A DNA stretch of 64,000 nt from an uncultured Thermomicrobiales bacterium. GTDB taxonomy: Bacteria; Chloroflexota; Chloroflexia; Thermomicrobiales; CFX8. The notes below the pieces were generated by a model, which saw nothing but the letters and a program-made list of their open reading frames with translations, was not told where the DNA came from and did no database searches. Shown here one piece after another: positions 14,626-44,314 of this stretch. The translations under genes and the position numbers were made by a program. Position 1 is the first letter of the stretch. Each line of letters opens with the position of its first letter. The stretch is from assembly GCA_964577155.1 (NCBI GenBank), contig CAZNYB010000003.1:13815-77814 (forward strand). The letters run 5' to 3'.

Positions 14626-15333
14626 ATGAACCATGACCAGATAACCAATGATGGCAGAGGCAAGGTGGCAACTCCGGCGGTATTTCTCGATCGCGACGGT
14701 GTCCTCAATCGTAATCGCAACGATCACGTGAAGGCCTGGGATGAATTTCATTTCATTCCCGGGGCGCTTTCTGCGATGCGGCTACTCGCCACAATTGGCA
14801 TGCCGATCGTGGTGGTGACAAATCAGGCAATCATCAATCAAGGGAAGGTGCCTCGCAGCACCGTCGAATTCATTCATGCCAGAATGACCAGCCGGATACA
14901 GCGTACTGGCGGTCGAGTCGACCGCATTCTGTATTGTCCCCATACCTCTGAGGAACATTGCGGCTGTCGCAAACCGCAACCGGGACTGCTCATGTTGGCT
15001 GCCCATGAACTGAACATTGATCTGGCGCGATCAGTGTTTGTCGGGGATGCCTTGACCGATATCGAAGCAGGCCAACGAGCCGGTTGCCGAACAGTCCTCG
15101 TTCGCTCCGGACGTGGGAATGATGCTCTGTCCAAGCTATCGCAATCAGTCGTTCGCTGGCCCGACACGGTTGCCACGGACCTCTTGTCAGCTTTACCAGC
15201 AATACGTGATCTATTGGGATTAGTCGGGAGCAGCGATGGCGCTCCCGATATGCAGCAGCAGGAACGAAGACATGAAGAATTCACGGGACACCAGTATGCG
15301 GCGCATCTCTCTGACGCGGCGTTCGATTCTTAG
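14626..15333 (+). CDS. gmhB: D-glycero-D-manno-heptose 1,7-bisphosphate (or alpha-1-phosphate pathway) phosphatase, HAD-IIIA
   Basis: VFLDRDGVLN, VVVTNQ, CPHxxxxxCGCRKPQPGLL (zinc-binding loop) and FVGDALTDIEAG motifs. Confidence 0.8.
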   Translation: MNHDQITNDGRGKVATPAVFLDRDGVLNRNRNDHVKAWDEFHFIPGALSAMRLLATIGMPIVVVTNQAIINQGKVPRSTVEFIHARMTSRIQRTGGRVDRILYCPHTSEEHCGCRKPQPGLLMLAAHELNIDLARSVFVGDALTDIEAGQRAGCRTVLVRSGRGNDALSKLSQSVVRWPDTVATDLLSALPAIRDLLGLVGSSDGAPDMQQQERRHEEFTGHQYAAHLSDAAFDS

Positions 15334-18300
15334 AGCCGGACTCGGCGGCACAGTCGCTTTTGCATTTTCAAACCATAATGTAAAACTGCGGCGGCGCTTC
15401 CTCTCGGCAAATGCCGCAACGCCGCCCGTTCAGACGGCTGCAACTCTGGCCGGCGACGAAGCTAGCCGCGAATTGGCGATCCAAGGGAACGGCTCGATCG
15501 CTATCGTCACCGATTCTTCAACTTCGACTTTCGGCGGCTATTTGGCAGAGATTCTGAGCGCGGAAGGGGTACGTGACTACAGTATTTTCCCACTGAGCTC
15601 GCTGAATTCAGTGATTCAAAATAGTCCGCGTGCCATCATTCTTGCGCCTTCGAGTCCTACATCAGCAAACATTACAACATTGCAAAATTACGTCTCATCA
15701 GGTGGCGGACTCGTCGTGTTGCGCCCCGATTCAGGGTTGAACAATCTGCTGGGTATCACGTCTGAGTCAGGGAGTATCAGCCAGGGTTATCTGCGTATCA
15801 CCGACACCCAGGTCGCTGGCGGCCTCTATAGCCAGACGATCCAATTTCACGGAACATCCAATAAATATAGCCTGAACGGTGCACAACAGATCGCCGAACT
15901 CTACACGTCCCGTACCAGCACCACCGGGTTGCCCGCGGCGACACTGTCAAACTTCGGATCGGGCCGCGCGGCGATGATGAGTTTTGATCTCGCGCAGAGC
16001 GTCGCCGAGATCCGCCAGGGCAATCCAGCTCAAGCAAACCAGGACACCGATGGGGACGGTATCGTCCGGTCTATTGATATCTATCGAAACTGGACCGACC
16101 TGGAACGGTCCAATGTTCCTCAAGCCGACATTCAACAGCGTCTGTTGGTGCGGCTGATCGATGCGGTATCTGGTTATCCTACGCCTCGCCTCTGGTACTT
16201 CCCCGGCAACTCCCGTAGCGTCTTTGTGCCAACTGGCGATGCCCACGGGAATCCGCAGTCCTATTTTCAGGCACTGATCGACGCCTTCAGTCAGCGCGGC
16301 ATCGGCATGACTTTCTTCGTTCCGACAACTTCCCCCCCACCATCAGCGGTTAGCCAGTGGATTAGCCAGGGTTTTGATTTCAGTATTCACCCCTATGTTG
16401 ATCAGGGTTATGGCTCCGGTTTTAGCGACAATCTGTCCGACTTCGTCAATGACTACGGCTTCAGCCCCGCGACGGCACGCACTCACCAGGTGCGCTGGAC
16501 CGGTTGGTCCACTGCGGCCGAAATCGAATCCCAATTTGGGATCGAGATGGACTTCAACTCCTATCAATGGAGCACATGGCTCTCAAATTCATCCGGTCAA
16601 GCCCGCGGTTATCTCAGCGGTAGTGGAATTCCGATGCGATTCGCCGCATCGGACGGAGATACCCTGTCGATCTTTCAACAGCACACGAACCTCGTCGACG
16701 AAGAACTCGCTCCAGAAGTAGGCGTGGCGGATCTCACGCTCACCGAAGCACTCTCCATCAGCCATCAAACGATTGACGATTGTATCGATCAGTTCCATAC
16801 CGCCATCGTCACGCAGTTTCACGTCGACTACTTCAATTTCGGCGATGTAAATTCATGGGTGCTCGGCACGACCGATTACGCTCTCCAGCGCGGAGCGACG
16901 CCGCTGACGGCAGCAGAATGGCTCGCATTCGTCAAGAGCCGCGCAGCGACGAATATCAGCGACGTAACCTGGGCTGCTAATGCCCTGTTGTTCACGGTTT
17001 CAGGCGGCGGATCAAACCGAACGGTACTCGTCCCACTCAGTCAACTCGGTTCCGCCTTGACCAGCGTTACGCGCAACGGCAGCAATGCAAGCTATAGCGT
17101 ATTGACGGTCGATGGCCGCTCGATGGCGGCCATTTCCGCAACCAACGGCAACTACAAGGCCACCTATGAGGCAGACACGACTGCCCCCGTCATCTCGAAC
17201 ATTGTGGTGACGTCGACAGCCAACACAGCTACCGTCACCTGGACGACGGACGAAGCGGCAACAAGCATCGTCGACTACGGTCTGACACCGTCGCTCGGCT
17301 CACAAGCCAGCGTCGCGGGTCTAGCGACCAGCCATAGCGTCACCCTTACCGGGCTCACACCGGCCACAACCTACTCCTACCAAGTCACGTCCGCGGATGC
17401 GTCGAACAACACCAGTTCGTCGGAGATTCAGTCATTCACGACAACACCGGCCGGCGCGCCAACACTGAGTGGCATTGCGCCTTCATCGGGGCAGAGCGGT
17501 ACAAGCCACAATGTGACCATTAGCGGCACGAACTTCGTCAATGGCATCTCAGCTTCACTCGGGACAACCGCGCTCCAGAATGTCGCTTTAACCAACTCCA
17601 CAACGATTCAGGCGGTCGTGCCGGCATCGCTGCCTGTCGGCCAGCATAACCTGGAGGTCACGAACCCGGACACCCAGAGCGCAACACTCGCAAACGCTTA
17701 TACGTCGACCGCGCCGCCGCCAGATCTGGTGAGCGTGGCGCCGCCAGTGGCGACCGCCGGTCAGCAGGTCACCCTCTCAGGCGCCGGATTCATCACCGGT
17801 GCAACGGTGCGCTTCAATTCGACCGCCGCGATGCAGACAACGGTGACATCATCGAGCTCGGCAACGGCGCAGATCCCGACATCGCTGGCTGGCGGGACTT
17901 ACTCAGTCACCCTGACCAACCCAGACCAGCAATCCGACACGCTAACCAACGCCCTGACCATCTCTGCCCTGCCGACTATCGGGCACACGACAGTGGCCGA
18001 CTTCACACCTGGCGTCTTCACAAACACCGCCGTCATAAGCGGTGGTCAGGCGGGTGACGGCGCGGTTGTTCTCGCGTCGAATGGGTGGCTCGATAACTTC
18101 GATCAGCCGAACCTGGATCCGAACCTCTGGACGAGCAATACCTGGCAGACGGGCGGCTCAATCGCCATCTCCACTGGGAATCTCAACGTCAATGGAGCAT
18201 GGATTCGAAGCGCTACGACGGTCGGCATCGGACGGGTGAATATGCGGGCAACGTTCACCGGGGCACCCTGGCTGAATATTGGCCTGAGCCGGACGGACGA

Positions 18301-21300
18301 TCTGGACAACCCGTGGTTCCTCTTCGGGGTGCCTGGCTGGGATACTTCTCAGGTCTATGTGCGATACAACTTCAGCGGTGGTTTCGCCAATATCCCCTTG
18401 CCAGATCTGCTCGGCGCGCCACACACGTATTCAATCGTCAAGGAATCCGGTCTTGTGCGATTCCTGGTCGACGATCAGGAGGTGCACCAAGTTGCGACCG
18501 GTGCGCTCGGCGGGCTAGCCACCTGGGTCAGTTCCGGCGCCATCGGCTCGCCGCTCAGCGTGGATTCTGTCGAGATTGTCACCTACCAGCCACAAGGCTC
18601 CTACCTGAGCCCAGCACTCGACGCCGGGCAGTCCGCGAACTGGCAGCAGCTCATCATTAGTGCGCCGTCAGTGCCATCCACCAGCTTCGTTGTGCGCGTT
18701 CGCTCGTCCACGTTCGGCTCCAACTGGTCAGCCTGGTCAACGGATATGAGCAGCTTCCCAGCCCAGTTGGCGTTGCCGGTCGGGCGCTACTTGCAGTACC
18801 AGATCGATCTCCAGAGCACGGACGGCACGACAACACCTATTATCGAAGCGGTCAGCGCTTCGTATCAGACCCAGTCAGGTCCGGTCGTTAGCAGCGTGGT
18901 CGTTTCGCCGGCATCGGTCAACCTCGAGCGCGACGAAACGCAACAGTTCATCGCCGAGGTCTCGGATACAGACGGCAATCCGCTGCCCGATGCACCCGTT
19001 ACCTGGAGCGTCACCAACGGCGGTGGCACGATCAATGCCAGCGGTCTCTTCACGGCCGGCGCCACTGGCGGAACGTTCACCAACACCGTCGTCGCTTCAA
19101 GCAACGGCATAACCGGATCGGCGTCCGTGACAGTGACTGTGCCTCCGGCTCCGCAGATCACCGACGTTTCGCCGCCCGCAGCTCTGGCTGGCGACACGGT
19201 CACCGTATCGGGTCAGAATTTCATCAGCGGTGCACAGGTTCATGTCGGATCGACACAGACCGACGACGTCAACGTCAGCAGCGCGACAACGCTGACCTTC
19301 ACCGTCCCAACTATCGCCAACGACACCTATTCGGTCACGGTGACGAATCCGGACGGACAGTTCGGCTCACTACAGAACGCACTCACGATCTCATCCCTCA
19401 ACTGGCTCAACCACACGTCGCTAAGCGACTTCCAAGCGGGCACTCACGCCAGCACGGCAGCCATTCAGGGTGGAGTAGCTGGTGATGGCGCGGTAATCCT
19501 CGCGAATCAAGGAAGTATCGATGATTTCAACGACGCATCATTGAATGGATCACTTTGGACCTCTGGTCTGTGGGATCCGAGCGGTTCGCTGACCATCTCC
19601 GGTGGAGCCTTGACGGCGCGGGGTGGTTGGGTGCGAAGCACGGCCTCCCTGACAAGCGGCGCTGCTTCTGGTCGGCTGACCTTCTCGAACACGGGTTGGC
19701 AGAACTTCGGCCTGAGCCGGACGGATGACCTGGACGCGCCGTGGTTCCTCTTCGGAGTACCGGGCTGGGATACTTCCCAGGTCTATGTGCGCTTCAACTA
19801 CAACGGCGGCTTGGGAAACGTTCCCATTCCGGGATTGATCGGCGAACCGCACGACTATGCGATCCAGGTCGGTGGCGGGATAGTCAGCTTCCTGGTCGAC
19901 GACCAGCAAGTTCATCAAGTCAACGTGCCGGCTCTCCCGACTATGGCAGTCTGGCTGAGCGTTGGTTCAACGATCGAGCCGGGAACGGTTGCAGATTCGC
20001 TCGGATCGGTGATCTACCCGGAGTCAGGCGCCTTCACGGGCCAGACCTTTGATGCCGGCCAGTATGCCAACTGGCAGGAACTCATCGTCGACGCTACGAC
20101 TATGCAGGGCACGACGCTTTCGTTCCGAGCACGCACATCGACCAACAGCACGACATGGTCAACTTGGTCGACCTCTACTAGCACGTCGCCTGCCCATTTA
20201 GCGCTGCCAGGTGGCCGGTATCTGCAGTACGAATTGAATCTTGCCACCACCAAGGGCTCGGCCACTCCGCTTATCCAGGTTGTCAGCGGCGGCTATACAC
20301 CGTCGACGCCGCCTGGTCCGGCGAGTATGACCATCACCCCGACAAACGCGACCTTGATACCTGGCGACACCCAACAATTCAGCGCTCAGGTGTTCGACAT
20401 TTCTGGCAACCTGATCACCGACGCGCCACTGAGCTGGAGCGTTGAGGCAGGTGGCGGAGAGATAACCTCCGGCGGGATGTTCACGGCAGGTTCGACGCTT
20501 GGTAACTACGCCGACACGGTGGTCGCGACGAGCAACAGCCTAAACGCGCGCGCCACGGTGAACGTCATCGCGCCACCCTCACCGCACATATCGAATGTAA
20601 ATCCGAGTTCAGCTGTCGTCGGCGCAAGTGTCACCATCACCGGCGACAACTTCGCCAGCGGTGCAACTGTGGCGCTCGATTCGATTCCGGTCAGCGACGC
20701 GACGGTCGTCAACGCGACAACGATCACGTTCACCGTTCCGCAGGTTCCGGCGGGAATGTACAGCGTCGTTGTAACGAATCCAAGAGAGCAGTCCGATATC
20801 CTCTCCGATGGTTTGACAGTATCAACACCTTCAGTTCCAGTTACGGTCTCACAGTCGACCGGTTCGGAGTTCGGTCAGGGTTCGCTGGTGAATACCGAGG
20901 TCACGACATTCGGCGATGGCGAAGTTCGTCTAACGGCAAGCTTCCTGGACGAGTTCAACGGTTCGGCGCTGGGTTCCGCGTGGAACTCCGGCAGCTATGG
21001 CAGCGGTGGTTCGGCAAGCGTCAACAACGGTCAGGCAGCCGTCACGAATGGGTGGATCCAGAGCACCGCTAGCTTCGGAGAGACGACGGCCACCGCACGC
21101 CTCACGTACAACAACAACGGTACGCCATATCTCAACTTCGGCTTCGGCTCAGCCGGTTCACTCGATTACCCGTGGTTCCTCTTTGGTATTCCGGGCTTTG
21201 ACACCAACCGCATCTACGCGCGCACGAACGTTCCGGGTGACTTCTATCTGGATCAGGTGATAAACGGCGTAACGCTGAATCAGCCCCATGAGTACTCGAT

Positions 21301-21754
21301 CCGGCGGCGTACCGGCGGTGTTGACTATCTCATCGACGGCCAGGTAGTCGCAACCCACACCGTCAACAGCCCGACAACCACAGCGCCACTTGCCGCATGG
21401 TTCAGCTCCGGTAACTCCGGGCAGACACTCAGCGCCGACTGGTTCCGGGTCGATCAGTATCCGTCCAATGGGACATTCACCTCGAACGACATCGATGCGG
21501 GCGTCACAGTCACATTGCAATCCGTCGCCGGTGACATTGACCTGCCGACCGGTACCAGCGCCAGTATCCGAGTGCGTACATCAACGAATGGCACGACGTG
21601 GAGCGCCTGGTCCTCGAGCGCAGCAATCTCTGGCAGTTCGGTCAATCTCGAGGCGCCGGACGGACGCTACGTTCAATATGAATTGACATTGACGAGCGGT
21701 GGCGAAAGCAGCCCTGAAATCCGCTCTGTCACCATCTCTGGAACCACAAGCTAG
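15272..21754 (+). CDS. giant secreted multidomain surface protein with Tat signal, FN3-like, IPT/TIG, LamG/ConA-like lectin-fold and Big_2 domains
   Basis: ORF 15236..21754. Likely starts are the ATGs at 15272 or 15296. Twin-arginine signal (TRRSILRAGLGGTVAFAF), one FN3-like domain (TVTWTTDEAATSIVDYG), and IPT-like units (ISGTNFVNG, LSGAGFITG, VSGQNFISG, ITGDNFASG). Big_2-like units (QQFIAEVSDTDGNPL, QQFSAQVFDISGNLI) and three lectin-fold modules are also present. The function of the N-terminal ~600 aa is not recognised with certainty. Confidence 0.8.
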   Translation: MKNSRDTSMRRISLTRRSILRAGLGGTVAFAFSNHNVKLRRRFLSANAATPPVQTAATLAGDEASRELAIQGNGSIAIVTDSSTSTFGGYLAEILSAEGVRDYSIFPLSSLNSVIQNSPRAIILAPSSPTSANITTLQNYVSSGGGLVVLRPDSGLNNLLGITSESGSISQGYLRITDTQVAGGLYSQTIQFHGTSNKYSLNGAQQIAELYTSRTSTTGLPAATLSNFGSGRAAMMSFDLAQSVAEIRQGNPAQANQDTDGDGIVRSIDIYRNWTDLERSNVPQADIQQRLLVRLIDAVSGYPTPRLWYFPGNSRSVFVPTGDAHGNPQSYFQALIDAFSQRGIGMTFFVPTTSPPPSAVSQWISQGFDFSIHPYVDQGYGSGFSDNLSDFVNDYGFSPATARTHQVRWTGWSTAAEIESQFGIEMDFNSYQWSTWLSNSSGQARGYLSGSGIPMRFAASDGDTLSIFQQHTNLVDEELAPEVGVADLTLTEALSISHQTIDDCIDQFHTAIVTQFHVDYFNFGDVNSWVLGTTDYALQRGATPLTAAEWLAFVKSRAATNISDVTWAANALLFTVSGGGSNRTVLVPLSQLGSALTSVTRNGSNASYSVLTVDGRSMAAISATNGNYKATYEADTTAPVISNIVVTSTANTATVTWTTDEAATSIVDYGLTPSLGSQASVAGLATSHSVTLTGLTPATTYSYQVTSADASNNTSSSEIQSFTTTPAGAPTLSGIAPSSGQSGTSHNVTISGTNFVNGISASLGTTALQNVALTNSTTIQAVVPASLPVGQHNLEVTNPDTQSATLANAYTSTAPPPDLVSVAPPVATAGQQVTLSGAGFITGATVRFNSTAAMQTTVTSSSSATAQIPTSLAGGTYSVTLTNPDQQSDTLTNALTISALPTIGHTTVADFTPGVFTNTAVISGGQAGDGAVVLASNGWLDNFDQPNLDPNLWTSNTWQTGGSIAISTGNLNVNGAWIRSATTVGIGRVNMRATFTGAPWLNIGLSRTDDLDNPWFLFGVPGWDTSQVYVRYNFSGGFANIPLPDLLGAPHTYSIVKESGLVRFLVDDQEVHQVATGALGGLATWVSSGAIGSPLSVDSVEIVTYQPQGSYLSPALDAGQSANWQQLIISAPSVPSTSFVVRVRSSTFGSNWSAWSTDMSSFPAQLALPVGRYLQYQIDLQSTDGTTTPIIEAVSASYQTQSGPVVSSVVVSPASVNLERDETQQFIAEVSDTDGNPLPDAPVTWSVTNGGGTINASGLFTAGATGGTFTNTVVASSNGITGSASVTVTVPPAPQITDVSPPAALAGDTVTVSGQNFISGAQVHVGSTQTDDVNVSSATTLTFTVPTIANDTYSVTVTNPDGQFGSLQNALTISSLNWLNHTSLSDFQAGTHASTAAIQGGVAGDGAVILANQGSIDDFNDASLNGSLWTSGLWDPSGSLTISGGALTARGGWVRSTASLTSGAASGRLTFSNTGWQNFGLSRTDDLDAPWFLFGVPGWDTSQVYVRFNYNGGLGNVPIPGLIGEPHDYAIQVGGGIVSFLVDDQQVHQVNVPALPTMAVWLSVGSTIEPGTVADSLGSVIYPESGAFTGQTFDAGQYANWQELIVDATTMQGTTLSFRARTSTNSTTWSTWSTSTSTSPAHLALPGGRYLQYELNLATTKGSATPLIQVVSGGYTPSTPPGPASMTITPTNATLIPGDTQQFSAQVFDISGNLITDAPLSWSVEAGGGEITSGGMFTAGSTLGNYADTVVATSNSLNARATVNVIAPPSPHISNVNPSSAVVGASVTITGDNFASGATVALDSIPVSDATVVNATTITFTVPQVPAGMYSVVVTNPREQSDILSDGLTVSTPSVPVTVSQSTGSEFGQGSLVNTEVTTFGDGEVRLTASFLDEFNGSALGSAWNSGSYGSGGSASVNNGQAAVTNGWIQSTASFGETTATARLTYNNNGTPYLNFGFGSAGSLDYPWFLFGIPGFDTNRIYARTNVPGDFYLDQVINGVTLNQPHEYSIRRRTGGVDYLIDGQVVATHTVNSPTTTAPLAAWFSSGNSGQTLSADWFRVDQYPSNGTFTSNDIDAGVTVTLQSVAGDIDLPTGTSASIRVRTSTNGTTWSAWSSSAAISGSSVNLEAPDGRYVQYELTLTSGGESSPEIRSVTISGTTS
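17977..21751 (+). repeat. three tandem intragenic modules of about 1.42 kb (A 17977-19395, B 19396-20828, C 20829-21751, truncated)
   Basis: Protein modules align by eye (LSRTDDLDNPWFLFGVPGWDTSQVYVRYN vs LSRTDDLDAPWFLFGVPGWDTSQVYVRFN vs GSAGSLDYPWFLFGIPGFDTNRIYARTN). At DNA level 18281-18370 vs 19709-19798 match at about 79 of 90 positions, by my count. Confidence 0.85.
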
Positions 21755-21914: not shown

Positions 21915-22688
21915 GTGCCGAAGAGTCTGAACACCTACATTCATACGCAGTCGTCCAGTTTTGGTAGCTGGATCACGCAGGAGCTTGCTACCGGTTTGCT
22001 CGGCTGGATCCCTTCGCTGCCGGGTATCGCATTGCGTGGCATTGGTTACCGCACGCTTCTGGATGCCGAAAGCATGCCCGTAATAGAACAAGGCGTCCGG
22101 CTTCGCTATATCGAAAACATTCGTCTCGGGCGCAATGTCTATCTCGATCAGGACACTTACCTGCATGCCTGCCCGGGTGGCATCGCGATCGGTGACGACA
22201 GCGTCATTATGCACGGCACGATCCTGCATGTCTTCAACTTCCGTAATTTGCCGCACGCCGGCATCACGATCGGCAAGCGCTGTTTCATCGGCGAGCGCAG
22301 CGTGATTCGCGGACAAGGCGGGGTACGGATCGGTGACGACGTGTTACTTGCGCCGCACGTCCAGATCCTGGCGATCGATCACGTCGTCGCGACAACTCGG
22401 GTGCCTATCATGGATCAGGGAATCAAAGGCGAAGGCATCATCATAGAAGACGGCGCTTGGCTCGGTGCAGGCTCGATTATTACGGACGGCGTCCGGGTTG
22501 GACGCAATGCGGTTGTCGGAGCCGGCGCAGTGGTAACCCACGATGTGCCCGACGGCGCGGTTGCTGTCGGAATCCCGGCGCGTGTCGTGCGAGAGATCGC
22601 CGATGAACCGCCCCCGCTTGACATAGCCCCACCGATTACCAAGGTCACTCGCAACGGTCCCACTCAGATAGCGGCGACATGGCGTTGA
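21915..22688 (+). CDS. left-handed beta-helix (hexapeptide repeat) acyl/acetyltransferase
   Basis: Repeated [LIV]-G-x4 hexapeptides (IGDDSVIMHGTIL, IGKRCFIGERSVI, IGDDVLLAPHVQI, GAWLGAGSIITDGVRVGRNAVVGAGAVV). Confidence 0.75.
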   Translation: MPKSLNTYIHTQSSSFGSWITQELATGLLGWIPSLPGIALRGIGYRTLLDAESMPVIEQGVRLRYIENIRLGRNVYLDQDTYLHACPGGIAIGDDSVIMHGTILHVFNFRNLPHAGITIGKRCFIGERSVIRGQGGVRIGDDVLLAPHVQILAIDHVVATTRVPIMDQGIKGEGIIIEDGAWLGAGSIITDGVRVGRNAVVGAGAVVTHDVPDGAVAVGIPARVVREIADEPPPLDIAPPITKVTRNGPTQIAATWR

Positions 22689-34644: not shown

Positions 34645-34743
34645 TTTCGGCATCTACGCACCCAACTATGTGAGTGAGATTGGGACCGCATACTTCATGT
34701 GGGCATGCGGGCAGCGCTTTCGAAGCGGTGAGGGCTCTTGTGT

Positions 34744-38111: not shown

Positions 38112-38855
38112 GTGGCTCTTCAGGATCCGGTGGCGGTTGCTTCAGGCAATATCGTGATCGTCGATGATGATGTGGTGACGACCAAAGTGCTGCGCTTCCT
38201 GCTCGAGGAGGAAGGCTACTCTACCTACGTCATCCATCGCGGCAGTCAGGTCGTCCAGGCTGTCACCAACCAGGAAACCGACCTCGTCCTCCTCGACATC
38301 AATCTGCCCGACATCGATGGCTTCACCCTCACCAAACTCCTGCGCGCTCACCGCTACTTCGGTCCCATCATCCTCCTCACCGGCCGGAGTTCTCTGGCCG
38401 ATAAACTCAGCGGCTTCGAACATGGCGCCGACGATTATCTTCCTAAACCTTACGAACCGCTCGAACTCCTCGCCCGCATCGAAGCCGTCCTCCGTCGAGC
38501 CAAACATGCCGACCAGCAACCTCTCGGTTCTGTCCTCCGCGTCGATGATGCCGAACTCTCGCTGGGTGAACTCACCTACCGGAGCAATGCCGTCGCAGAC
38601 GCCCTGCTCACTCCCACCGAAATGCGGCTGCTCGAAGTGCTGATGCGCAACAGCTGGATCGTCATTGGACGCGACACCTTGATCGAACGTGTCTGGGGGT
38701 ATGACTTTGAAGGCGACACCAATCGTGTCGATGTCTACATTCGCCGGGTCCGTCGCAAGATCGAAGCCGATCCCCAACAACCCCGCTATCTCCACACCGT
38801 CCGTGGCGTCGGCTACGTCTTTCGTGTCGAATCAGCTACGGTCAACACCGAATAG
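38112..38855 (+). CDS. OmpR/PhoB-family response regulator, copy 1 (canonical receiver plus winged helix)
   Basis: Receiver residues are present: IVDDD, DLVLLDINLPDIDG, LLTGRS, GADDYLPKP. Trans_reg_C domain (LTPTEMRLLEVL, VDVYIRRVRRKIE, TVRGVGYVF). GTG start with GAAGGGAA upstream. Confidence 0.85.
   Translation: MALQDPVAVASGNIVIVDDDVVTTKVLRFLLEEEGYSTYVIHRGSQVVQAVTNQETDLVLLDINLPDIDGFTLTKLLRAHRYFGPIILLTGRSSLADKLSGFEHGADDYLPKPYEPLELLARIEAVLRRAKHADQQPLGSVLRVDDAELSLGELTYRSNAVADALLTPTEMRLLEVLMRNSWIVIGRDTLIERVWGYDFEGDTNRVDVYIRRVRRKIEADPQQPRYLHTVRGVGYVFRVESATVNTE
38155..38837 (+). repeat. 683-bp perfect direct repeat, copy 1 (internal to the response regulator CDS)
   Basis: Compared line by line with 40935..41617 at an offset of 2780 nt. 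No mismatch seen between these bounds, and the flanks are unrelated. Confidence 0.9.
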
Positions 38856-39024
38856 CTCTGCTGAGACCTCCCAGTTGTTCCCTCTCAAGCGCTCATGTCA
38901 GATTTCTCATACGCCAGTGCCCGGAATGACGCACTCGCCACTACATTGACGAGTTCTACTATGAACGTCGGAGCGTTCATCGCCTCGACATATCATTCGT
39001 CGACTCGATGTGGAGAGCATAGCC

Positions 39025-39687
39025 ATGGCGCCGAACATCTCCGACTACCTCAAGGATATCCAGTGTGCTCTGGAGCTAGTCAATGCTGATGATATTGAAG
39101 CGATCGTTTCGAGACTGTTTCGAGCCTACGCCGAGAGCCGGACCGTGTTCACCTGTGGGAATGGAGCGAGTGCTGCGCTTGCTTCACACATGGCTTGTGA
39201 CCTCGGCAAGGGAACCGCACCGGATCTTGGTAGAGGTCCGGACAAACTGTCGGCGAGACGGCTACGCATTCATAGTTTGAACGATAACGCCGCACTGCTA
39301 ACTGCTTATAGCAACGACCTTGCTTACGAAGATGTCTTTGTAGAGCAGTTAAAGAATTTCCTCAGCCCGAATGACGTCCTCATCGGTATCAGCGGAAGTG
39401 GTGGATCACCGAACGTTCTGAGAGCAATGGCCTATGCGCGCAAGGCTGGTGCAACCACGATAGGGCTCACCGGCTCGCAATCTAGCGCGTTCAAGATCAT
39501 TGAACTCTCCGACCTCCGATTGCAAGTGGCCCCGGAATTGATGGAGCAGATTGAGGATCTGCACGTAATTGTTCACCACATTATCGGGCTGAGATTGCGT
39601 GCAAGAATTGCCGACTACGCACCTGTCGATTTAGCCGAGCCTGTGATGACCAACATCGAGCGCCCATATATCAATCCTTGGGACTAA
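39025..39687 (+). CDS. gmhA: SIS-domain sedoheptulose-7-phosphate isomerase (phosphoheptose isomerase)
   Basis: FTCGNGASAALASHMACDLGK and LIGISGSGGSPNVLRAMAYARKAGATTIGLTG motifs. The ATG at 39025 has GGAGAG 7 nt upstream. Confidence 0.75.
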   Translation: MAPNISDYLKDIQCALELVNADDIEAIVSRLFRAYAESRTVFTCGNGASAALASHMACDLGKGTAPDLGRGPDKLSARRLRIHSLNDNAALLTAYSNDLAYEDVFVEQLKNFLSPNDVLIGISGSGGSPNVLRAMAYARKAGATTIGLTGSQSSAFKIIELSDLRLQVAPELMEQIEDLHVIVHHIIGLRLRARIADYAPVDLAEPVMTNIERPYINPWD

Positions 39688-40502
39688 GGATCACCCGTCA
39701 AAGATACGTTATCTCCACGATCGGCCGGACGGGTTTGAGGTTTTCCAGCGTTGGGCATTTGGACGGACATCTCTTCGCGTGAGAGCTTGTAATCTGACGA
39801 TCGCCGGAACCGGGCAACGTATCCACGATTCTGGACTGTTATGACCGAGATCGCCACGAATCCGCTGGTTTCGAGTTTTCGGCGTATATGGCTAATGATC
39901 CTGGGCACTGTCGAGGGCTGAACTCGGCCTCTATCCATGTCTTTCGCTATGGTGTCAGTAGATACCGGTAGGCCATCATGTTCGAGTAGGACGCTCAAGA
40001 CTTCCCATTCGAGTGGAGAGAGCTGTACCTTAAGGGGTCCGGCTACGATTGTATGGCTCTCAGAATCAAACTTGATGCCACTACTTTCGCGCCGTTCGGT
40101 GAACGGCCAGATCCGGGTAACGAGAGCGCGCATCCTCGCAACAAGTTCGGCAGGTTCGTAAGGGCTGACCAGATAATCATCGGCGCCGGAACGCAGAACA
40201 TCGGCTATGACCTGAGGATTCCGGTCAGCGCAAATAACCAGAATCTTCGCCCGACTTACAGCTCTGGCTCCAACAACGATTTCCAATCCTCTCCGAGCAT
40301 CCTGTGTCAAACTGAAAATGATCAAATCCAGCTGCTCATCGGGAACCTCCGCCAGTTGAAACGGATCAACAGGTCGAGTCTCCCAACCTAGTTCCTCGAC
40401 CAACGATACAATTTCACTGGTTTCGAACGGTTCCTCCGAATAAATTCCAACGTATATTGGACCTTGGTCGGCACGCTCGCTAGCCTGGATGTCAGCTTCC
40501 AT
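39684..40502 (-). CDS. atypical OmpR-family regulator with a pseudo-receiver domain
   Basis: The winged-helix output domain is intact (LSPLEWEVLSVLL, IISHIRRKLE, VQNRGYVARF). The receiver lacks the phospho-chemistry residues: DLIIFSL instead of DxxxxD, VSPYEP instead of TKPF, YSEEP instead of DD. Confidence 0.75.
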   Translation of the reverse strand: MEADIQASERADQGPIYVGIYSEEPFETSEIVSLVEELGWETRPVDPFQLAEVPDEQLDLIIFSLTQDARRGLEIVVGARAVSRAKILVICADRNPQVIADVLRSGADDYLVSPYEPAELVARMRALVTRIWPFTERRESSGIKFDSESHTIVAGPLKVQLSPLEWEVLSVLLEHDGLPVSTDTIAKDMDRGRVQPSTVPRIISHIRRKLETSGFVAISVITVQNRGYVARFRRSSDYKLSREEMSVQMPNAGKPQTRPADRGDNVSLTGDP

Positions 40503-40513
40503 GGGTTAACTCC

Positions 40514-40732: not shown

Positions 40733-40751
40733 CGGCTCGCAGCTTCCTTCA

Positions 40752-40785
40752 TGACAGATTTGTCAGATTTATGACAGTCGGGTCA
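40752..40785. promoter_or_regulatory. tandem operator-like sites C1 (TGAC-AGATTT-GTCA, 40752-40765) and C2 (TGAC-AGTCGG-GTCA, 40772-40785)
   Basis: Read directly (catGACAGATTTGTCAGATTTATGACAGTCGGGTCAcc). The two perfect-arm palindromes start exactly 20 bp apart. They lie in the AT-rich divergent gap between the atypical regulator and response regulator copy 2. Confidence 0.6.
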
Positions 40786-40912: not shown

Positions 40913-41638
40913 GTGACAATGTCTTCCAATGTCATGATCGTCGATGATGATGTGGTGACGACCAAAGTGCTGCGCTTCCTGCTCGAGGAGGAAGGCTACT
41001 CTACCTACGTCATCCATCGCGGCAGTCAGGTCGTCCAGGCTGTCACCAACCAGGAAACCGACCTCGTCCTCCTCGACATCAATCTGCCCGACATCGATGG
41101 CTTCACCCTCACCAAACTCCTGCGCGCTCACCGCTACTTCGGTCCCATCATCCTCCTCACCGGCCGGAGTTCTCTGGCCGATAAACTCAGCGGCTTCGAA
41201 CATGGCGCCGACGATTATCTTCCTAAACCTTACGAACCGCTCGAACTCCTCGCCCGCATCGAAGCCGTCCTCCGTCGAGCCAAACATGCCGACCAGCAAC
41301 CTCTCGGTTCTGTCCTCCGCGTCGATGATGCCGAACTCTCGCTGGGTGAACTCACCTACCGGAGCAATGCCGTCGCAGACGCCCTGCTCACTCCCACCGA
41401 AATGCGGCTGCTCGAAGTGCTGATGCGCAACAGCTGGATCGTCATTGGACGCGACACCTTGATCGAACGTGTCTGGGGGTATGACTTTGAAGGCGACACC
41501 AATCGTGTCGATGTCTACATTCGCCGGGTCCGTCGCAAGATCGAAGCCGATCCCCAACAACCCCGCTATCTCCACACCGTCCGTGGCGTCGGCTACGTCT
41601 TTCGTGTCGAATCAGCTGTTGACAATCTGGATGCTTAA
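40913..41638 (+). CDS. OmpR/PhoB-family response regulator, copy 2
   Basis: Identical to copy 1 from IVDDDVVTTKV to VFRVESA. The N-terminus (MTMSSNVM) and C-terminus (VDNLDA) are unique. Start is GTG 40913 or ATG 40919. Confidence 0.85.
   Translation: MTMSSNVMIVDDDVVTTKVLRFLLEEEGYSTYVIHRGSQVVQAVTNQETDLVLLDINLPDIDGFTLTKLLRAHRYFGPIILLTGRSSLADKLSGFEHGADDYLPKPYEPLELLARIEAVLRRAKHADQQPLGSVLRVDDAELSLGELTYRSNAVADALLTPTEMRLLEVLMRNSWIVIGRDTLIERVWGYDFEGDTNRVDVYIRRVRRKIEADPQQPRYLHTVRGVGYVFRVESAVDNLDA
40935..41617 (+). repeat. 683-bp perfect direct repeat, copy 2
   Basis: See copy 1 (38155..38837). Confidence 0.9.
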
Positions 41639-41896: not shown

Positions 41897-42676
41897 ATGA
41901 CAACGCAACGCAATCGTTCAACGCACGATGCCTCCGACAAGGATTCAGTGCGCAACGAGCAGCCTGAACAGCAGCCAGCGCCTGTCGACAGGCGGTTGAT
42001 TGCCGCGATGGCCGGTCATGAATTGCGAGAACCTATCAATGCCATTATCAGCTTCCTCAATGTTACGGTCCAGGAACGTCTCGGTCCATTGAATGCACTG
42101 CAGTCGGAGTTCCTGCGTAGCACGGAATCAGCCGCAAGAAGACTCGAACGGCGCATTGATGACGTGCAAGTCGCGCTGCTGGAAGGCGACGCGCTGAAAC
42201 TTCATAGAGCATGGATCGATCCCAATAGACGAGTCGTCGCGACATGCCGGGAGCTCGAATGGGCGGCAGAGAAGTACGAGACAAAAGTGCTCATGAACCT
42301 TGAACGGTCGACAAGAAATCCGGGGACATGGGCAGATGCCGATCGCCTCGCTCAAATACTATCCAACGTAATTGAGAACGCAATTCGGTACGCTCCAGCG
42401 GGAACTGAAGTGCGCGTTTCAACGTCTTTTCGAGAACATGGTTACTGGACATTCATTGTGGAGAATGACCTGGAGCAAGATCAACAGTTTAGTACTGCCA
42501 ACTGGTTTCTGCCTGGCGATCGCTCAACACGAGCAAACGATCGGCAACGGCCTGGGCTAGGTTTAGGGCTGACTATTGCGAAGTACCTGGTCGAGGCACA
42601 TCAAGGAGAGATCTGGGCAGATATCGTCGACAGTAAAGTACAGGTAGGATTCTCGATCCCTCACCACAAAAGGTAG
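41897..42676 (+). CDS. small cytoplasmic histidine kinase (DHp plus HATPase_c only, no sensor or TM region)
   Basis: H-box AAMAGHELREPINAI, N-box LSNVIENAIRYAP and G2 box RPGLGLGLTIAKYLVEAHQGEIWAD. The expected G1 box DxGxG reads ENDLEQ. Confidence 0.75.
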   Translation: MTTQRNRSTHDASDKDSVRNEQPEQQPAPVDRRLIAAMAGHELREPINAIISFLNVTVQERLGPLNALQSEFLRSTESAARRLERRIDDVQVALLEGDALKLHRAWIDPNRRVVATCRELEWAAEKYETKVLMNLERSTRNPGTWADADRLAQILSNVIENAIRYAPAGTEVRVSTSFREHGYWTFIVENDLEQDQQFSTANWFLPGDRSTRANDRQRPGLGLGLTIAKYLVEAHQGEIWADIVDSKVQVGFSIPHHKR

Positions 42677-42739
42677 GCGCAATCCAACGATGTCGTCGTT
42701 GTTCTACCCATACGTGGAAATCGATGAACTAACTCAGTG

Positions 42740-43021: not shown

Positions 43022-43159
43022 TGAATACCTTGTCCCCCTCCAGGGTACCCGTAGACGGTCCTAACTCCGAGCTACGATGTGACGAGCTATCGTACGTACA
43101 GGTTATCATCCGTGCTCGACTTGCACAACCACCCAATACTCCCAATTTGAAGATTGAAC

Positions 43160-43173
43160 TGAAGATACTGTCA
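43160..43173. promoter_or_regulatory. operator-like site H with one arm mismatch: TGAA-GATACT-GTCA
   Basis: Read directly (aaCTGAAGATACTGTCAGTTc). About 100 nt upstream of hddA. Shares the 9-mer CTGTCAGTT with site A. Confidence 0.4.
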
Positions 43174-43270
43174 GTTCATTAGAGAAGGCACTGCGACTAG
43201 TTGTGCCTGAATACTGCCGTATTGTAAACGGTGTGAAATAGTAGATGTCAAGCTGATCTCGGAGGACCAC

Positions 43271-44314
43271 ATGACAGTCATTGCCCGCGCACCTCTCAGA
43301 ATCGGACTGGCTGGCGGTGGTACGGATCTACCCGCTTACGCCGATCACCATCAAGGGTTGGTCGTCAGCACGACGATCGATCGATACGTCTACGTCATCC
43401 TGACCAGCACCGCGCAGTCATCGCTACAAATCATGGCTGCCGACGCCAACTCGATGCTATCACGTCGCGACCATCTCTTTGATTCAGCGCTGTTCTGGGG
43501 AGCGGACTATCGCTTACCACTTGAAATCCTCGAGTATTTTGGAGTCTCAGGAGGCAGGCGTGTCTTCATCGCCTCAGAAGTTCCGCCCGGCACCGGGCTC
43601 GGCTCCTCTAGCGCAACGGCAGTCGCTCTCATTCGGGCGCTCGATGCTGATTTGACTCTCCGGCTCTCTACGAAAGAGATCGCGGACATCGCCTGTCACA
43701 TCGAAATCGACCGTATGGGAATGCCGATCGGAAGACAGGATCAATACGCAGCTGCATTCGGCGGTCTGAACGTTCTGACATTCACCTCAGAGGACACGCA
43801 GATTGAGTCATTGCGGGTTCCTGAATTGTACCGGCATGAGCTTGAGTCTCGTATCTTACTCTTCTTCACCGGCCGTCGGCGACGGTCAACCAATATTCTA
43901 GAAAGCCAGCGCAAGGCAACCACTGAAGCTGGCTCACGAACACTGGAATCTCTCCACGAGATCAAGCGTCTAGCGAAGCAGATGATCACCGCCATCCAGA
44001 ATGGGGATTTCGAGCTAGTAGGTCGATTGCTCGACGAGTCCTGGAACCAGAAACGACGACTCGCGAGTGGCGTTTCTACGCCCGAGATAGATAGCTGGTA
44101 TGACGAAGCTCGAAAAGCCGGCGCTTTGGGTGGAAAGATCACCGGCGCAGGAGGCGGCGGCTTCCTGATGCTATATGCCGAGCCGCACCTGCGCTCAGCC
44201 GTGATCCGTCGCATGAGTGAGCTTGGTCTCGTCTGGGTCGACAGCGCGTTCGACCGGCAGGGGGCGATTCCATTGCTCGCTATCCCGAGCGGTGAACTGG
44301 TTTACGCTGATTAG
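43271..44314 (+). CDS. hddA: GHMP-family sugar kinase, D-glycero-alpha-D-manno-heptose 7-phosphate kinase-like
   Basis: RAPLRIGLAGGGTDLPAY N-terminus, GHMP motif PPGTGLGSSSATAVALIRAL and C-terminal GGKITGAGGGGFLMLY. Confidence 0.7.
   Translation: MTVIARAPLRIGLAGGGTDLPAYADHHQGLVVSTTIDRYVYVILTSTAQSSLQIMAADANSMLSRRDHLFDSALFWGADYRLPLEILEYFGVSGGRRVFIASEVPPGTGLGSSSATAVALIRALDADLTLRLSTKEIADIACHIEIDRMGMPIGRQDQYAAAFGGLNVLTFTSEDTQIESLRVPELYRHELESRILLFFTGRRRRSTNILESQRKATTEAGSRTLESLHEIKRLAKQMITAIQNGDFELVGRLLDESWNQKRRLASGVSTPEIDSWYDEARKAGALGGKITGAGGGGFLMLYAEPHLRSAVIRRMSELGLVWVDSAFDRQGAIPLLAIPSGELVYAD

What the first reader, a model, noticed from the sequence alone, without database searches (positions are those of the whole stretch)
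14626..44314. GDP-heptose-type pathway genes (gmhB, gmhA, hddA) are scattered over 30 kb and interleaved with two-component genes; no cognate nucleotidyltransferase is visible
The window has a GmhB-type phosphatase (14626), a GmhA-type isomerase (39025) and a GHMP kinase of the HddA type (43271). Together these are three of the four steps to GDP-D-glycero-alpha-D-manno-heptose, as established for the S-layer glycan of Aneurinibacillus thermoaerophilus. In that organism the genes are clustered. Here they are split. gmhB overlaps the start of the giant Tat-signal surface protein gene. gmhA sits between regulator genes. hddA follows the kinase. I see no HddC-type guanylyltransferase. The only nucleotidyltransferase in view is the partial RmlA-like gene at 1-452. 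The operator-like motif occurs upstream of gmhB and hddA and, in weaker form, upstream of gmhA.
Basis: partly seen in the sequence, partly recalled or inferred. Interest (0 to 1): 0.65.

Follow-up and report, generated by a model that had tools for sequence, protein, structure and literature searches.

The report
Scattered heptose-type sugar-phosphate genes, Chloroflexota glycan locus
A large cell-surface polysaccharide locus of an uncultured Chloroflexota bacterium holds a real heptose-type sugar kinase, a matching phosphatase and an atypical isomerase-like gene; they are dispersed by rearrangement, kinase and phosphatase share an operator, and as in related genomes there is no dedicated nucleotide-activating enzyme, which makes this a modest variant of a known pathway.

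Summary
The window has a GmhB-like HAD-IIIA phosphatase (14626-15333), a GmhA-fold SIS protein (39010-39687) and an HddA-type GHMP kinase (43271-44314). They lie in a roughly 60-kb Wzx/Wzy glycan locus. The only nucleotidyltransferase is a partial short RmlA (1-452, minus strand).

- The kinase and phosphatase are solid. Their best matches are heptose enzymes, and all tested catalytic residues are conserved.
- In 26-29 of 80 Chloroflexota species genomes, kinase, SIS and GmhB sit together beside a GalE epimerase and the priming transferase.
- Only one of those modules carries a nucleotidyltransferase. The "missing HddC" is therefore a feature of the phylum, not of this window.
- The window's SIS is not canonical GmhA. 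Its metal tetrad is H/D/E/H rather than H/E/Q/H, and Q175E inactivates Burkholderia GmhA.
- It belongs to a sister subfamily that pairs with ROK kinases in sugar-catabolic loci elsewhere. Its role as sedoheptulose-7-phosphate isomerase is therefore unproven.

The operator-like motif is real. It is the palindrome CTGAC-N6-GTCAG, and 7 of 8 sites are intergenic. It lies upstream of gmhB and hddA but only as a half-site upstream of gmhA.

The scattering reflects rearrangement, marked by a duplicated response-regulator gene at 2x read depth. This is a new variant of a known kind, of moderate interest.

The parts
1..452 (-). 5' part (150 aa) of a short RmlA-type sugar-1-phosphate nucleotidyltransferase. 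It is the only nucleotidyltransferase in the window and a candidate activating enzyme.
   Evidence: Translation. Pfam NTP_transferase 95.8 bits. NCBIfam rmlA 130 bits over half the model, against 23.9 for HddC. A full-length 84%-identical homologue, L097, is 256 aa; its best PDB match is B. anthracis RfbA 3hl3 at 256 bits.
768..1733 (-). GalE-type UDP-hexose 4-epimerase. In other Chloroflexota this gene is the constant neighbour of the kinase-SIS-GmhB module.
   Evidence: Pfam Epimerase 211 bits. PDB 4zrm, UDP-glucose 4-epimerase, 309 bits. Neighbourhoods.
1745..3304 (-). Priming phosphoglycosyl transferase (Bac_transf). It precedes the epimerase and the module in relatives.
   Evidence: Pfam Bac_transf 201.6 bits. 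Synteny.
14486..14501 (.). Operator-like palindrome, one mismatch (CTGACAATGCCGTCAC). It lies in the divergent promoter region between the PMT_2 gene and gmhB-like.
14544..14559 (.). Operator-like palindrome, perfect arms (CTGACGAATCTGTCAG), ending 67 bp upstream of the gmhB-like ATG.
14626..15333 (+). GmhB-like HAD-IIIA sugar-bisphosphate 7-phosphatase. It has a C-terminal extension that overlaps the start of the giant gene.
   Evidence: NF006506 175.9 bits against a cut-off of 178; TIGR01656 134.6 bits against 84. PDB GmhB 4pnh 127 bits. Motifs present: DxD, T, CxH-5-CxC zinc cap, K, DxxxD.
15272..21754 (+). Giant secreted protein of about 2160 aa with a Tat signal. Its start overlaps the end of gmhB-like. 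It is a possible glycosylation target.
   Evidence: ORF. Tat motif TRRSIL read. Pfam TIG x4, Big_1 and fn3-like domains.
21915..22688 (+). WcaF/WbbJ-type hexapeptide O-acetyltransferase. A homologue flanks the module in Anaerolineales.
38112..38855 (+). OmpR-type response regulator, copy 1 of a near-identical duplicate of about 690 bp.
   Evidence: The repeat is a 683-bp unitig at about 2x depth in three runs.
39010..39687 (+). GmhA-fold SIS protein, subfamily I. Its metal/catalytic tetrad is H60/D64/E182/H190.
   Evidence: SIS_2 67 bits; gmhA 94.5 bits against a cut-off of 209. PDB GmhA 68 bits. AlphaFold model pLDDT 92; best fold match is B. pseudomallei GmhA at TM 0.75/0.85. Residue table and tree.
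39684..40502 (-). Atypical OmpR-family regulator with a degenerate receiver domain. It is conserved next to the two-component system in relatives.
   Evidence: Trans_reg_C 38 bits; Response_reg 22 bits, below cut-off. Relatives L006 and L008.
40751..40766 (.). Operator-like palindrome, one mismatch (ATGACAGATTTGTCAG). It lies between the atypical regulator and response regulator copy 2.
40913..41638 (+). OmpR-type response regulator, copy 2, in the ancestral position upstream of the histidine kinase.
41897..42676 (+). Short cytoplasmic histidine kinase of 259 aa with HisKA and HATPase_c domains and no sensor domain.
   Evidence: It is conserved upstream of the kinase gene in L006 and L008.
43159..43174 (.). 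Operator-like palindrome, one mismatch (CTGAAGATACTGTCAG), ending 97 bp upstream of the hddA-like ATG.
   Evidence: Equivalent sites lie upstream of the kinase in L005 (9816) and L006 (9893).
43271..44314 (+). HddA-type GHMP kinase, a predicted sugar-7-phosphate C1 kinase.
   Evidence: NF049969 206 bits against 123 for fucokinase. PDB 3k85 204 bits, WcbL 186, 4n3o 165, fucokinase 90. R10, D19, S112-114, Q156 and D157 correspond to WcbL R13, D22, S118-120, Q162 and D163.
44645..44660 (.). Operator-like palindrome, perfect arms (CTGACAAATGTGTCAG), upstream of a conserved secreted 541-aa protein.
52057..52072 (.). Operator-like palindrome, perfect arms (CTGACGGTATTGTCAG), upstream of the acetyltransferase/DegT aminotransferase genes.

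Best explanation
The window is a large Wzx/Wzy-type surface-glycan locus of an uncultured Chloroflexota bacterium.

**Proposed pathway.** Within the locus, the HddA-type kinase (43271-44314) and the GmhB-type phosphatase (14626-15333) form the core of a route from sugar-7-phosphate to sugar-1-phosphate. [quoted passage not shown] The GmhA-fold SIS protein (39010-39687) most likely supplies the aldose-7-phosphate from sedoheptulose 7-phosphate, using a rearranged His/Asp/Glu/His metal site. The sugar-1-phosphate is then activated by an enzyme that is not HddC. The short RmlA at the window edge is the local candidate; an unlinked ManC/HddC-like enzyme is the alternative. The activated sugar is finally built into the polysaccharide or onto secreted proteins.

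**Regulation and arrangement.** The kinase and phosphatase genes, the regulators and several other units of the locus share a palindromic operator, CTGAC-N6-GTCAG. They probably form one regulon under the adjacent two-component system or the atypical OmpR-type regulator. The dispersed layout is a secondary rearrangement of a module that is compact in other Chloroflexota.

**Shown:**
- the family placement of the three proteins and their residue conservation;
- the conservation of the module in other Chloroflexota;
- the general absence of a nucleotidyltransferase from it;
- the enrichment of the operator;
- the rearrangement that dispersed the genes.

**Inferred:**
- the substrate identity (heptose);
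- the participation of this SIS protein;
- the identity of the activating enzyme;
- which regulator binds the operator.
For: **Kinase**
- The best characterised relatives are heptose-7-phosphate kinases.
- All seven WcbL residues shown by mutation to be essential (PMC4691232) are conserved in the window kinase and in all 42 Chloroflexota homologues examined.

**Phosphatase**
- It scores 175.9 bits on the GmhB model NF006506.
- It has the full DxD/T/K/DxxxD set and the CxH/CxC zinc cap, which is specific to GmhB and HisB-N (PMC9798254).

**Module conservation**
- Of 80 epimerase-centred loci from different species genomes, 32 carry the kinase next to the epimerase, 29 add the SIS gene, and 26 hold all three within about 3.2 kb. 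Gene order varies between loci.
- Ktedonobacteraceae have kinase-SIS pairs convergent with the epimerase.
- L025 has an HddC/ManC-like nucleotidyltransferase inside the module, which ties the module to NDP-sugar synthesis.

**Co-location in the window's own clade**
- One 43,996-nt contig also holds a GmhB-like protein.
- This was checked directly for the 78-kb contig.

**Operator**
- Enrichment is shown.
- It is conserved upstream of the kinase in L005 and L006, and in other intergenic regions of relatives' loci.

**RmlA link**
- An RmlA-like gene lies 3.8 kb from the SIS gene in L095.
- It lies directly after a subfamily-II SIS in L137.
Against: - **The SIS protein fails GmhA's defining active-site test.** It has D64 for E68, E182 for Q175 and L57 for D61. 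Q175E renders B. pseudomallei GmhA inactive, and D61A leaves 6% activity (PMC5705639).
- **It is not the orthologue of the kinase-linked SIS** (tree). Its named relatives at 57-59% identity, from Deinococcus and Symbiobacteriaceae, follow ROK kinases in catabolic loci with sugar ABC transporters or with GH38, GH2 and GH84 enzymes.
- **The gmhA-like gene has only a half operator.** It also sits inside a recently duplicated segment.
- **Curated cut-offs are missed.** The kinase scores 206 against 600, and GmhB-like 175.9 against 178.
- **RmlA may be a housekeeping enzyme.** Close homologues of the RmlA-like gene sit in housekeeping contexts, for example next to argS.
- **There is no chemical evidence for heptose in any Chloroflexota glycan** in the searched literature.
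Confidence: 0.5

Rival explanations
1. Same enzyme logic, different sugar. The reconfigured SIS isomerase (H/D/E/H site) acts on another ketose phosphate. One possibility is fructose 6-phosphate to mannose 6-phosphate. The kinase and phosphatase would then convert that product to the 1-phosphate, as a phosphomutase-independent route. The end product would be an activated hexose or another non-heptose sugar.
For: - Q175E inactivates true GmhA on sedoheptulose 7-phosphate (PMC5705639). Yet Glu is invariant at this position in both Chloroflexota SIS subfamilies.
- Subfamily-I SIS genes follow generic ROK sugar kinases in loci with alpha-mannosidase-type GH38, GH2 and GH84 enzymes or with sugar ABC transporters. 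That pattern fits a kinase plus phosphosugar-isomerase catabolic pair.
- WcbL binds mannose in its sugar pocket (PMC4691232).
- No HddC is present.
Against: - The kinase conserves all heptokinase residues, and heptokinases are its closest characterised relatives.
- GmhB-type phosphatases are the closest relatives of the phosphatase.
- The paired E68D and Q175E changes could simply swap acid and base roles while keeping the same reaction.
- No enzyme of this subfamily has been assayed.
Confidence: 0.2
2. The three genes are not one pathway here. The kinase serves the polysaccharide locus. The GmhB-like gene is a general HAD-IIIA phosphatase co-transcribed with the giant secreted protein. The SIS gene is a catabolic or unrelated phosphosugar isomerase brought in by the rearrangement that duplicated the response regulator.
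For: - The genes lie 24 kb and 3.6 kb apart and in separate transcription units.
- The SIS gene belongs to the ROK-associated subfamily.
- The SIS gene lacks a full operator.
- It lies between the two copies of a 99.9%-identical repeat at a synteny breakpoint.
- Relatives L006, L008 and L009 have the kinase without SIS or GmhB within 10 kb.
Against: - Kinase and SIS-I recur on the same contigs in five relatives, and all three proteins occur on one 44-kb contig.
- gmhB-like and hddA-like share the operator.
- An HddA-type kinase has no known substrate source other than a GmhA-type isomerase.
- The three gene types are tightly clustered in at least 26 other Chloroflexota genomes.
Confidence: 0.2
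3. There is no nucleotide activation at all. The module's end product is a free heptose phosphate (1-phosphate or 1,7-bisphosphate), used directly as a donor, a metabolite or a signal.
For: A nucleotidyltransferase is absent within 10 kb of the module in all but one of the Chloroflexota loci examined.
Against: - The module always sits in glycan-assembly loci beside the priming transferase and glycosyltransferases, which use nucleotide sugars.
- L025 carries a nucleotidyltransferase within the module.
- Unlinked or promiscuous nucleotidyltransferases are a simpler explanation.
Confidence: 0.05

Closest known systems
[quoted passage not shown] 2001, as cited in PMC7705670 and PMC9798254)
   Same: - A GHMP-type C1 kinase and a HAD-IIIA 7-phosphatase with a zinc cap.
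- An isomerase with the GmhA fold.
- Location in a surface-glycan locus next to a large secreted protein.
   Different: - There is no HddC.
- The genes are dispersed over 30 kb instead of clustered.
- The isomerase has an H/D/E/H site instead of H/E/Q/H and scores far below the GmhA cut-off.
- The nucleotide carrier is unknown.
Capsule heptose kinases WcbL (Burkholderia pseudomallei) and HddA (Campylobacter jejuni), and Bacteroides 3k85
   Same: - The alignment is full-length, at 165-204 bits.
- WcbL residues R13, D22, S118-120, Q162 and D163 are all conserved.
   Different: - Identity is only about 35-40%, and the score is below the NCBIfam equivalog cut-off (206 against 600).
- The gene is linked to a two-component system and to a Chloroflexota-specific operator.
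Compact Chloroflexota module: priming transferase, GalE, HddA-like, SIS (subfamily II), GmhB-like. It is uncharacterised and was found here in Anaerolineales-type genomes and, in part, in Ktedonobacteraceae.
   Same: - The same three enzyme types.
- The same non-canonical SIS metal site.
- The same GalE and priming-transferase partners.
- The same lack of a nucleotidyltransferase.
   Different: - The window's genes are dispersed.
- Its SIS belongs to sister subfamily I.
- Its kinase is only 35% identical to the Anaerolineales kinases and 50% identical to the Ktedonobacteraceae ones.
ROK kinase plus SIS (subfamily I) pairs in Deinococcus yavapaiensis and a Symbiobacteriaceae MAG. They are annotated as phosphoheptose isomerase and are uncharacterised.
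   Same: The SIS proteins are 57-59% identical to the window's and carry the identical N-A-S-L-H-D...E-D-H-H signature.
   Different: There the partner is a ROK sugar kinase in catabolic loci with ABC transporters or glycoside hydrolases, not an HddA-type kinase in a glycan-synthesis locus.

Membership tests
GmhA (sedoheptulose-7-phosphate isomerase) | GmhA-class SIS fold (Pfam SIS_2) | tested here: met
   SIS_2 scores 67 bits. The AlphaFold model has pLDDT 92. The best PDB fold matches are GmhA structures at TM 0.75/0.85, with DiaA just behind.
GmhA (sedoheptulose-7-phosphate isomerase) | Score at or above the curated equivalog cut-off | tested here: not met
   TIGR00441 scores 94.5 bits against 209.45, and NF010546 scores 87 against 276.
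GmhA (sedoheptulose-7-phosphate isomerase) | Invariant zinc/catalytic tetrad His64, Glu68, Gln175, His183 (B. pseudomallei numbering; PMC5705639) | tested here: not met
   The window has H60, D64, E182 and H190. Asp61 is replaced by Leu. Q175E is inactive in B. pseudomallei GmhA.
GmhA (sedoheptulose-7-phosphate isomerase) | Ser/Thr phosphate-binding loop and the Asn55/Ser58 sugar contacts | tested here: met
   The GISGSGGSPN loop, N51 and S54 are conserved.
GmhA (sedoheptulose-7-phosphate isomerase) | Isomerisation of sedoheptulose 7-phosphate | not testable with these tools
   This needs an enzyme assay.
[quoted passage not shown] | GHMP kinase N and C domains over the full length | tested here: met
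   PF00288 scores 63 bits and PF08544 scores 56.5 bits.
[quoted passage not shown] | Closer to heptose kinases than to sister GHMP families (fucokinase, galactokinase, mevalonate kinase) | tested here: met
   NCBIfam gives 206 bits for HddA, 123 for fucokinase and 108 for mevalonate kinase. PDB gives 204, 186 and 165 bits for heptose kinases against 90 for fucokinase.
[quoted passage not shown] | Score at or above the curated equivalog cut-off | tested here: not met
   NF049969 scores 206 bits against 600.
[quoted passage not shown] | WcbL catalytic and sugar-binding residues R13, D22, S118-120, Q162, D163 | tested here: met
   All are conserved in the window kinase and in all 42 Chloroflexota homologues examined.
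GmhB (heptose-1,7-bisphosphate 7-phosphatase) | HAD-IIIA catalytic motifs plus the CxH/CxC zinc cap | tested here: met
   Present are D22xD24, T65, C104xH106, five residues, C112xC114, K116 and D141xxxD145. The cap rule comes from PMC9798254.
GmhB (heptose-1,7-bisphosphate 7-phosphatase) | Score at or above the curated cut-off, and above the histidinol-phosphatase models | tested here: inconclusive
   NF006506 scores 175.9 bits against 178, and TIGR00213 scores 112 against 149.6. The subfamily domain TIGR01656 passes at 134.6 against 84. The HisB models score only 73-80 bits.
GmhB (heptose-1,7-bisphosphate 7-phosphatase) | Preference for the alpha anomer, as needed after an HddA-type kinase | not testable with these tools
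   The profile labelled 'beta' scores higher than the one labelled 'alpha' (175.9 against 96 bits). Anomer preference cannot be read from this.
HddC (heptose-1-phosphate guanylyltransferase) | An HddC-type nucleotidyltransferase gene in the locus | tested here: not met
   The only NTP_transferase in the window is the short RmlA (rmlA 130 bits against HddC 23.9).

The most novel reading that the evidence does not exclude
Chloroflexota, together with some Deinococcota and Firmicutes for the SIS part, use a distinct GmhA-like isomerase class. Its metal site is His/Asp/Glu/His, and a Glu sits where canonical GmhA is inactivated by that very change. Together with an HddA-type kinase and a GmhB-type phosphatase, this enzyme class forms an HddC-independent route. 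The route would either make a sugar-1-phosphate other than D-glycero-D-manno-heptose-1-phosphate, for example as a mutase-free route to a hexose-1-phosphate, or hand heptose-1-phosphate to an RmlA-type enzyme and so yield a dTDP- or UDP-heptose not described so far.
Probability: 0.18. Interest if true: 0.75.

Novelty: new variant of a known kind. Interest (0 to 1): 0.45.

Why it matters
Heptose-containing glycans and their NDP-heptose precursors are known mainly from Proteobacteria, a few Firmicutes and actinomycete natural products. Here a conserved kinase/isomerase/phosphatase module appears across Chloroflexota. These are abundant in soil, sediment and wastewater, but their envelope chemistry is almost unknown.

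- **Testable prediction.** The module predicts heptose, or a related sugar, in Chloroflexota surface glycans.
- **Enzymology puzzle.** The GmhA-like enzymes have a swapped catalytic pair.
- **Open question.** It is not known which enzyme activates the sugar.
- **Annotation caution.** Both the SIS and the kinase are routinely named as heptose enzymes by KO transfer, while failing curated cut-offs.
- **Regulation.** The shared palindromic operator gives a handle on how a 60-kb glycan locus is regulated.

Tried and rejected
1. **Hidden nucleotidyltransferase in the 257-aa hexapeptide protein (21915-22688).** Rejected. It is a WcaF/WbbJ-type O-acetyltransferase.
2. **Epimerase as an HldD-like heptose epimerase.** Rejected. 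It is a GalE, scoring 309 bits to 4zrm against 120 bits to the HldD model.
3. **RmlA-like gene as a mis-called HddC.** Rejected. It is a short RmlA, best matched by B. anthracis RfbA.
4. **SIS protein as a NagS-type GlcNAc-6-phosphate dehydratase.** Rejected. NagS is MurQ-related and confined to Streptomycetaceae (PMC12680351).
5. **Extending the window leftwards to see what follows RmlA.**
   - Exact-protein look-ups gave only short Logan contigs that stop before RmlA.
   - The right-edge protein is not on record.
   - The source genome is not among the GTDB representatives.
   - Metagenome hits to RmlA are not syntenic.
6. **Rfam scan of the window.** No hits.
7. **Promoter and terminator scan.** Uninformative; counts were at the level of shuffled sequence.
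8. **Literature search for heptose in Chloroflexota.** Nothing relevant was found.
9. **Accession look-up to prove the proteins share contigs.** It returned no accessions.

Full report
**What the window is**

Pfam and NCBIfam scans of all major ORFs show one large surface-glycan locus. It contains:
- a priming phosphoglycosyl transferase (1745-3304, minus strand) and a GalE-type epimerase (768-1733, minus strand);
- several GT4 and GT2 glycosyltransferases, a Wzx flippase (6032-7534) and a Wzy polymerase (27120-28520);
- a chain-length tyrosine-kinase-like protein (34738-36393);
- acetyltransferases, aminotransferases and a B12-radical SAM enzyme;
- a PMT_2/ArnT-like GT-C operon;
- a 2160-aa Tat-secreted protein with TIG, Big_1 and fn3-like domains.

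Homologues come almost only from Chloroflexota MAGs. The source genome itself is not among the GTDB species representatives. The best epimerase match there is 67% identical, to a Thermomicrobiales MAG.

**Check of the observation**

- *Phosphatase, 14626-15333.* The GmhB model NF006506 scores 175.9 bits, just under its cut-off of 178. The histidinol-phosphatase models score 73-80 bits. PDB GmhB structures are the best hits. The DxD, T, K and DxxxD motifs are present, as is the CxH...CxC zinc cap. That cap is a feature specific to GmhB and HisB-N (PMC9798254).
- *Kinase, 43271-44314.* It scores 206 bits on the HddA model against 123 on fucokinase. Against PDB it scores 204, 186 and 165 bits to heptose kinases and 90 to fucokinase.
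- *SIS protein, 39010-39687.* It is closest to GmhA but weakly so, at 94.5 bits against a cut-off of 209.
- *Gene arrangement.* The gmhB-like ORF overlaps the giant gene's start by 38-62 nt. The SIS gene lies between two regulator genes. The kinase gene follows the histidine kinase gene.
- *Nucleotidyltransferase.* A six-frame HMM and phmmer scan found only the partial RmlA-like gene, which is on the minus strand at 1-452.

**The kinase and phosphatase are convincing**

The WcbL study showed that R13A, D22A, S118-120A, Q162L and D163A each abolish activity (PMC4691232). The aligned residues in the window kinase are R10, D19, S112-114, Q156 and D157. All are conserved, both here and in all 42 Chloroflexota homologues I collected. 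Of the 29 other GmhB-like proteins collected, 28 share the window protein's catalytic and zinc-cap residues (one with Ser at the Thr position).

**The three gene types are a real module elsewhere**

I scanned one genome per species for relatives of the window's epimerase. This returned 80 Chloroflexota-type loci.
- In 32 loci an HddA-like kinase lies next to the epimerase.
- In 29 loci a GmhA-like SIS gene is there as well.
- In 26 loci kinase, SIS and GmhB-like all lie within about 3.2 kb.

The usual order is priming transferase, epimerase, kinase, SIS, then GmhB on the opposite strand. Several permutations occur (domains confirmed for L053). Ktedonobacteraceae have kinase-SIS pairs convergent with the epimerase. 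Conservation across varying gene orders argues for functional coupling. The epimerase itself is an ordinary GalE, at 309 bits to T. maritima UDP-glucose 4-epimerase. It probably serves the priming transferase.

**The missing nucleotidyltransferase is general**

I searched every six-frame ORF of 94 loci with the RmlA fragment and with an HMM built from it. Only one further NTP_transferase turned up. It is an HddC/ManC-like gene that sits between the epimerase and the kinase in L025. L025 does show that at least one version of the module feeds an NDP-sugar.

The window's RmlA-like gene is a true short RmlA. A full-length 84%-identical homologue is 256 aa, and its best PDB hit is B. anthracis RfbA at 256 bits. 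Close homologues sit in housekeeping contexts. Three hints keep it as a candidate:
- It lies directly downstream of the epimerase, where other Chloroflexota have the module.
- In relative L095 it lies 3.8 kb from the SIS gene.
- In L137 a short RmlA directly follows a subfamily-II SIS gene.

**The isomerase is the weak point**

[quoted passage not shown] Q175E is inactive, and D61A retains 6% activity (PMC5705639). The window protein has H, D, E and H at the ligand positions and Leu at position 61.

The same H/D/E/H pattern is invariant in all 33 Chloroflexota SIS proteins from the loci. It is therefore a stable alternative active site and not decay. The AlphaFold model has pLDDT 92 and the GmhA fold, at TM 0.75/0.85 to 2x3y.

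A neighbour-joining tree separates two sister subfamilies.
- Subfamily II has the signature N-G-S-T-H-D. It holds every SIS that sits beside the HddA-like kinase.
- Subfamily I has the signature N-A-S-L-H-D. It holds the window's protein, its close relatives, and proteins from Deinococcus, Calidithermus, Symbiobacteriaceae, Thermomicrobiales and Propionicimonas.

The two subfamily-I genes whose context I could read follow a generic ROK sugar kinase. One is next to a sugar ABC transporter. The other is next to GH38, GH2 and GH84 glycosidases. The window's SIS is thus not the orthologue of the kinase-coupled isomerase, and members of its subfamily look catabolic.

Against a complete uncoupling, subfamily-I SIS and the kinase of the window's clade occur on contigs of identical length in five relatives. 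One 43,996-nt contig also carries a GmhB-like protein. For the 78-kb contig I confirmed that both genes lie in the same extended glycan locus, about 50 kb apart. The same dispersed state therefore recurs in the clade.

**The operator-like motif**

The shared 9-mer CTGTCAGTT upstream of gmhB-like and hddA-like is part of a 16-bp palindrome, CTGAC-N6-GTCAG.
- With at most one mismatch there are 8 sites against 2.6 expected.
- The looser form CTGA-N6-10-TGTCAG gives 7 sites against 0.72 expected.
- Seven of the 8 sites lie in the 10.7% of the window that is intergenic.

The sites mark these promoter regions:
- PMT_2/gmhB-like, with two copies;
- atypical regulator/response regulator;
- hddA-like;
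- a conserved secreted 541-aa protein;
- the acetyltransferase/DegT unit;
- a STAND/LuxR regulator.

The motif recurs in relatives, upstream of the kinase in L005 and L006 and in other intergenic gaps of their glycan loci. gmhA-like has only a half-site. I infer one regulon, but the binding protein is not identified.

**Why the genes are scattered**

In relatives at 61-67% kinase identity the order is as follows: BNR protein, tyrosine-kinase-like protein, GT4, GT4, priming transferase and epimerase on one strand; convergent with them kinase, histidine kinase and response regulator; then the atypical regulator. In the window this block is broken between the two GT4 genes, and the regulator-kinase unit is inverted.

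At the breakpoint lies a direct repeat of about 690 bp, with one or two mismatches. It duplicates the response-regulator gene and brackets the SIS gene and the atypical regulator. In three public runs the repeat is a separate 683-bp unitig at about twice the depth of its flanks, with three distinct flanking contigs. The duplication is therefore real and not an assembly error.

**Conclusion**

The best-supported reading is as follows. A heptose-type route from sugar-7-phosphate to sugar-1-phosphate serves this glycan locus. It is co-regulated through a shared operator, dispersed by rearrangement, and completed by a nucleotidyltransferase that is not HddC.

Three things remain inferred: the identity of the sugar, the part played by this particular SIS protein, and the nucleotide carrier. 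The main rivals are a different substrate for the reconfigured isomerase, and a non-pathway reading in which the SIS gene is unrelated.

This is a new variant of a known pathway. The general points of interest are the Chloroflexota-wide module without a nucleotidyltransferase and the GmhA-like enzymes with a swapped catalytic pair.

Noticed in passing
window 38147-38838 and 40927-41618: There is a near-perfect direct repeat of about 690 bp that duplicates an OmpR-type response-regulator gene. In three public runs it forms a separate 683-bp unitig at about 2x depth. It sits at a synteny breakpoint relative to related genomes and brackets the SIS gene and the atypical regulator.
   Followed up: yes
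window 14486, 14544, 40751, 43159, 44645, 52057, 60021: The palindrome CTGAC-N6-GTCAG marks seven intergenic sites across the glycan locus. It is conserved in the intergenic regions of related loci (L005, L006, L008, L009). The regulator that binds it is unknown.
   Followed up: partly
window 8024-14385 (minus strand): An operon encodes a PMT_2/ArnT-like GT-C transferase, a GFO/IDH/MocA oxidoreductase, a GT2, a UDP-GlcNAc 2-epimerase, a small 147-aa EamA-like membrane protein and an amine oxidase. It looks like a polyprenyl-phosphate-sugar system for glycosylation outside the cytoplasm. It is divergent from gmhB-like and the giant Tat protein.
   Followed up: no
window 45016-46641: A secreted 541-aa protein has no Pfam match and a Pro/Thr-rich linker, which is a possible O-glycosylation region. 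It is conserved in relatives (L095, L005) and is preceded by a perfect operator palindrome.
   Followed up: no
L025 1292-1984; L137 4807-6255: These are two exceptions to the module's lack of a nucleotidyltransferase. L025 has an HddC/ManC-like gene between the epimerase and the kinase. L137 has a subfamily-II SIS gene directly followed by a short RmlA that is 72% identical to the window's.
   Followed up: partly
L176 7072-8603; L177 6978-8612: In Deinococcus yavapaiensis and a Symbiobacteriaceae MAG, proteins annotated as phosphoheptose isomerase (57-59% identical to the window's SIS) directly follow ROK sugar kinases. The loci also hold a sugar ABC transporter, or GH38, GH2 and GH84 enzymes. 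The annotation may be wrong for this subfamily.
   Followed up: partly
L011-L014 (Ktedonobacteraceae), about 4800-12800: The kinase-SIS pair sits downstream of sulfate-activation genes (ATP sulfurylase, APS kinase), a phosphodiesterase/sulfatase-family gene and an inositol-1-phosphate synthase gene. This hints at a sulfated or otherwise unusual glycan.
   Followed up: no
window 24196-25824 and 60252-62573: A B12-binding radical SAM enzyme is embedded among the glycosyltransferases. A STAND-type (NB-ARC/TPR) LuxR-family regulator lies at the right end of the window, with an operator-like site upstream.
   Followed up: no
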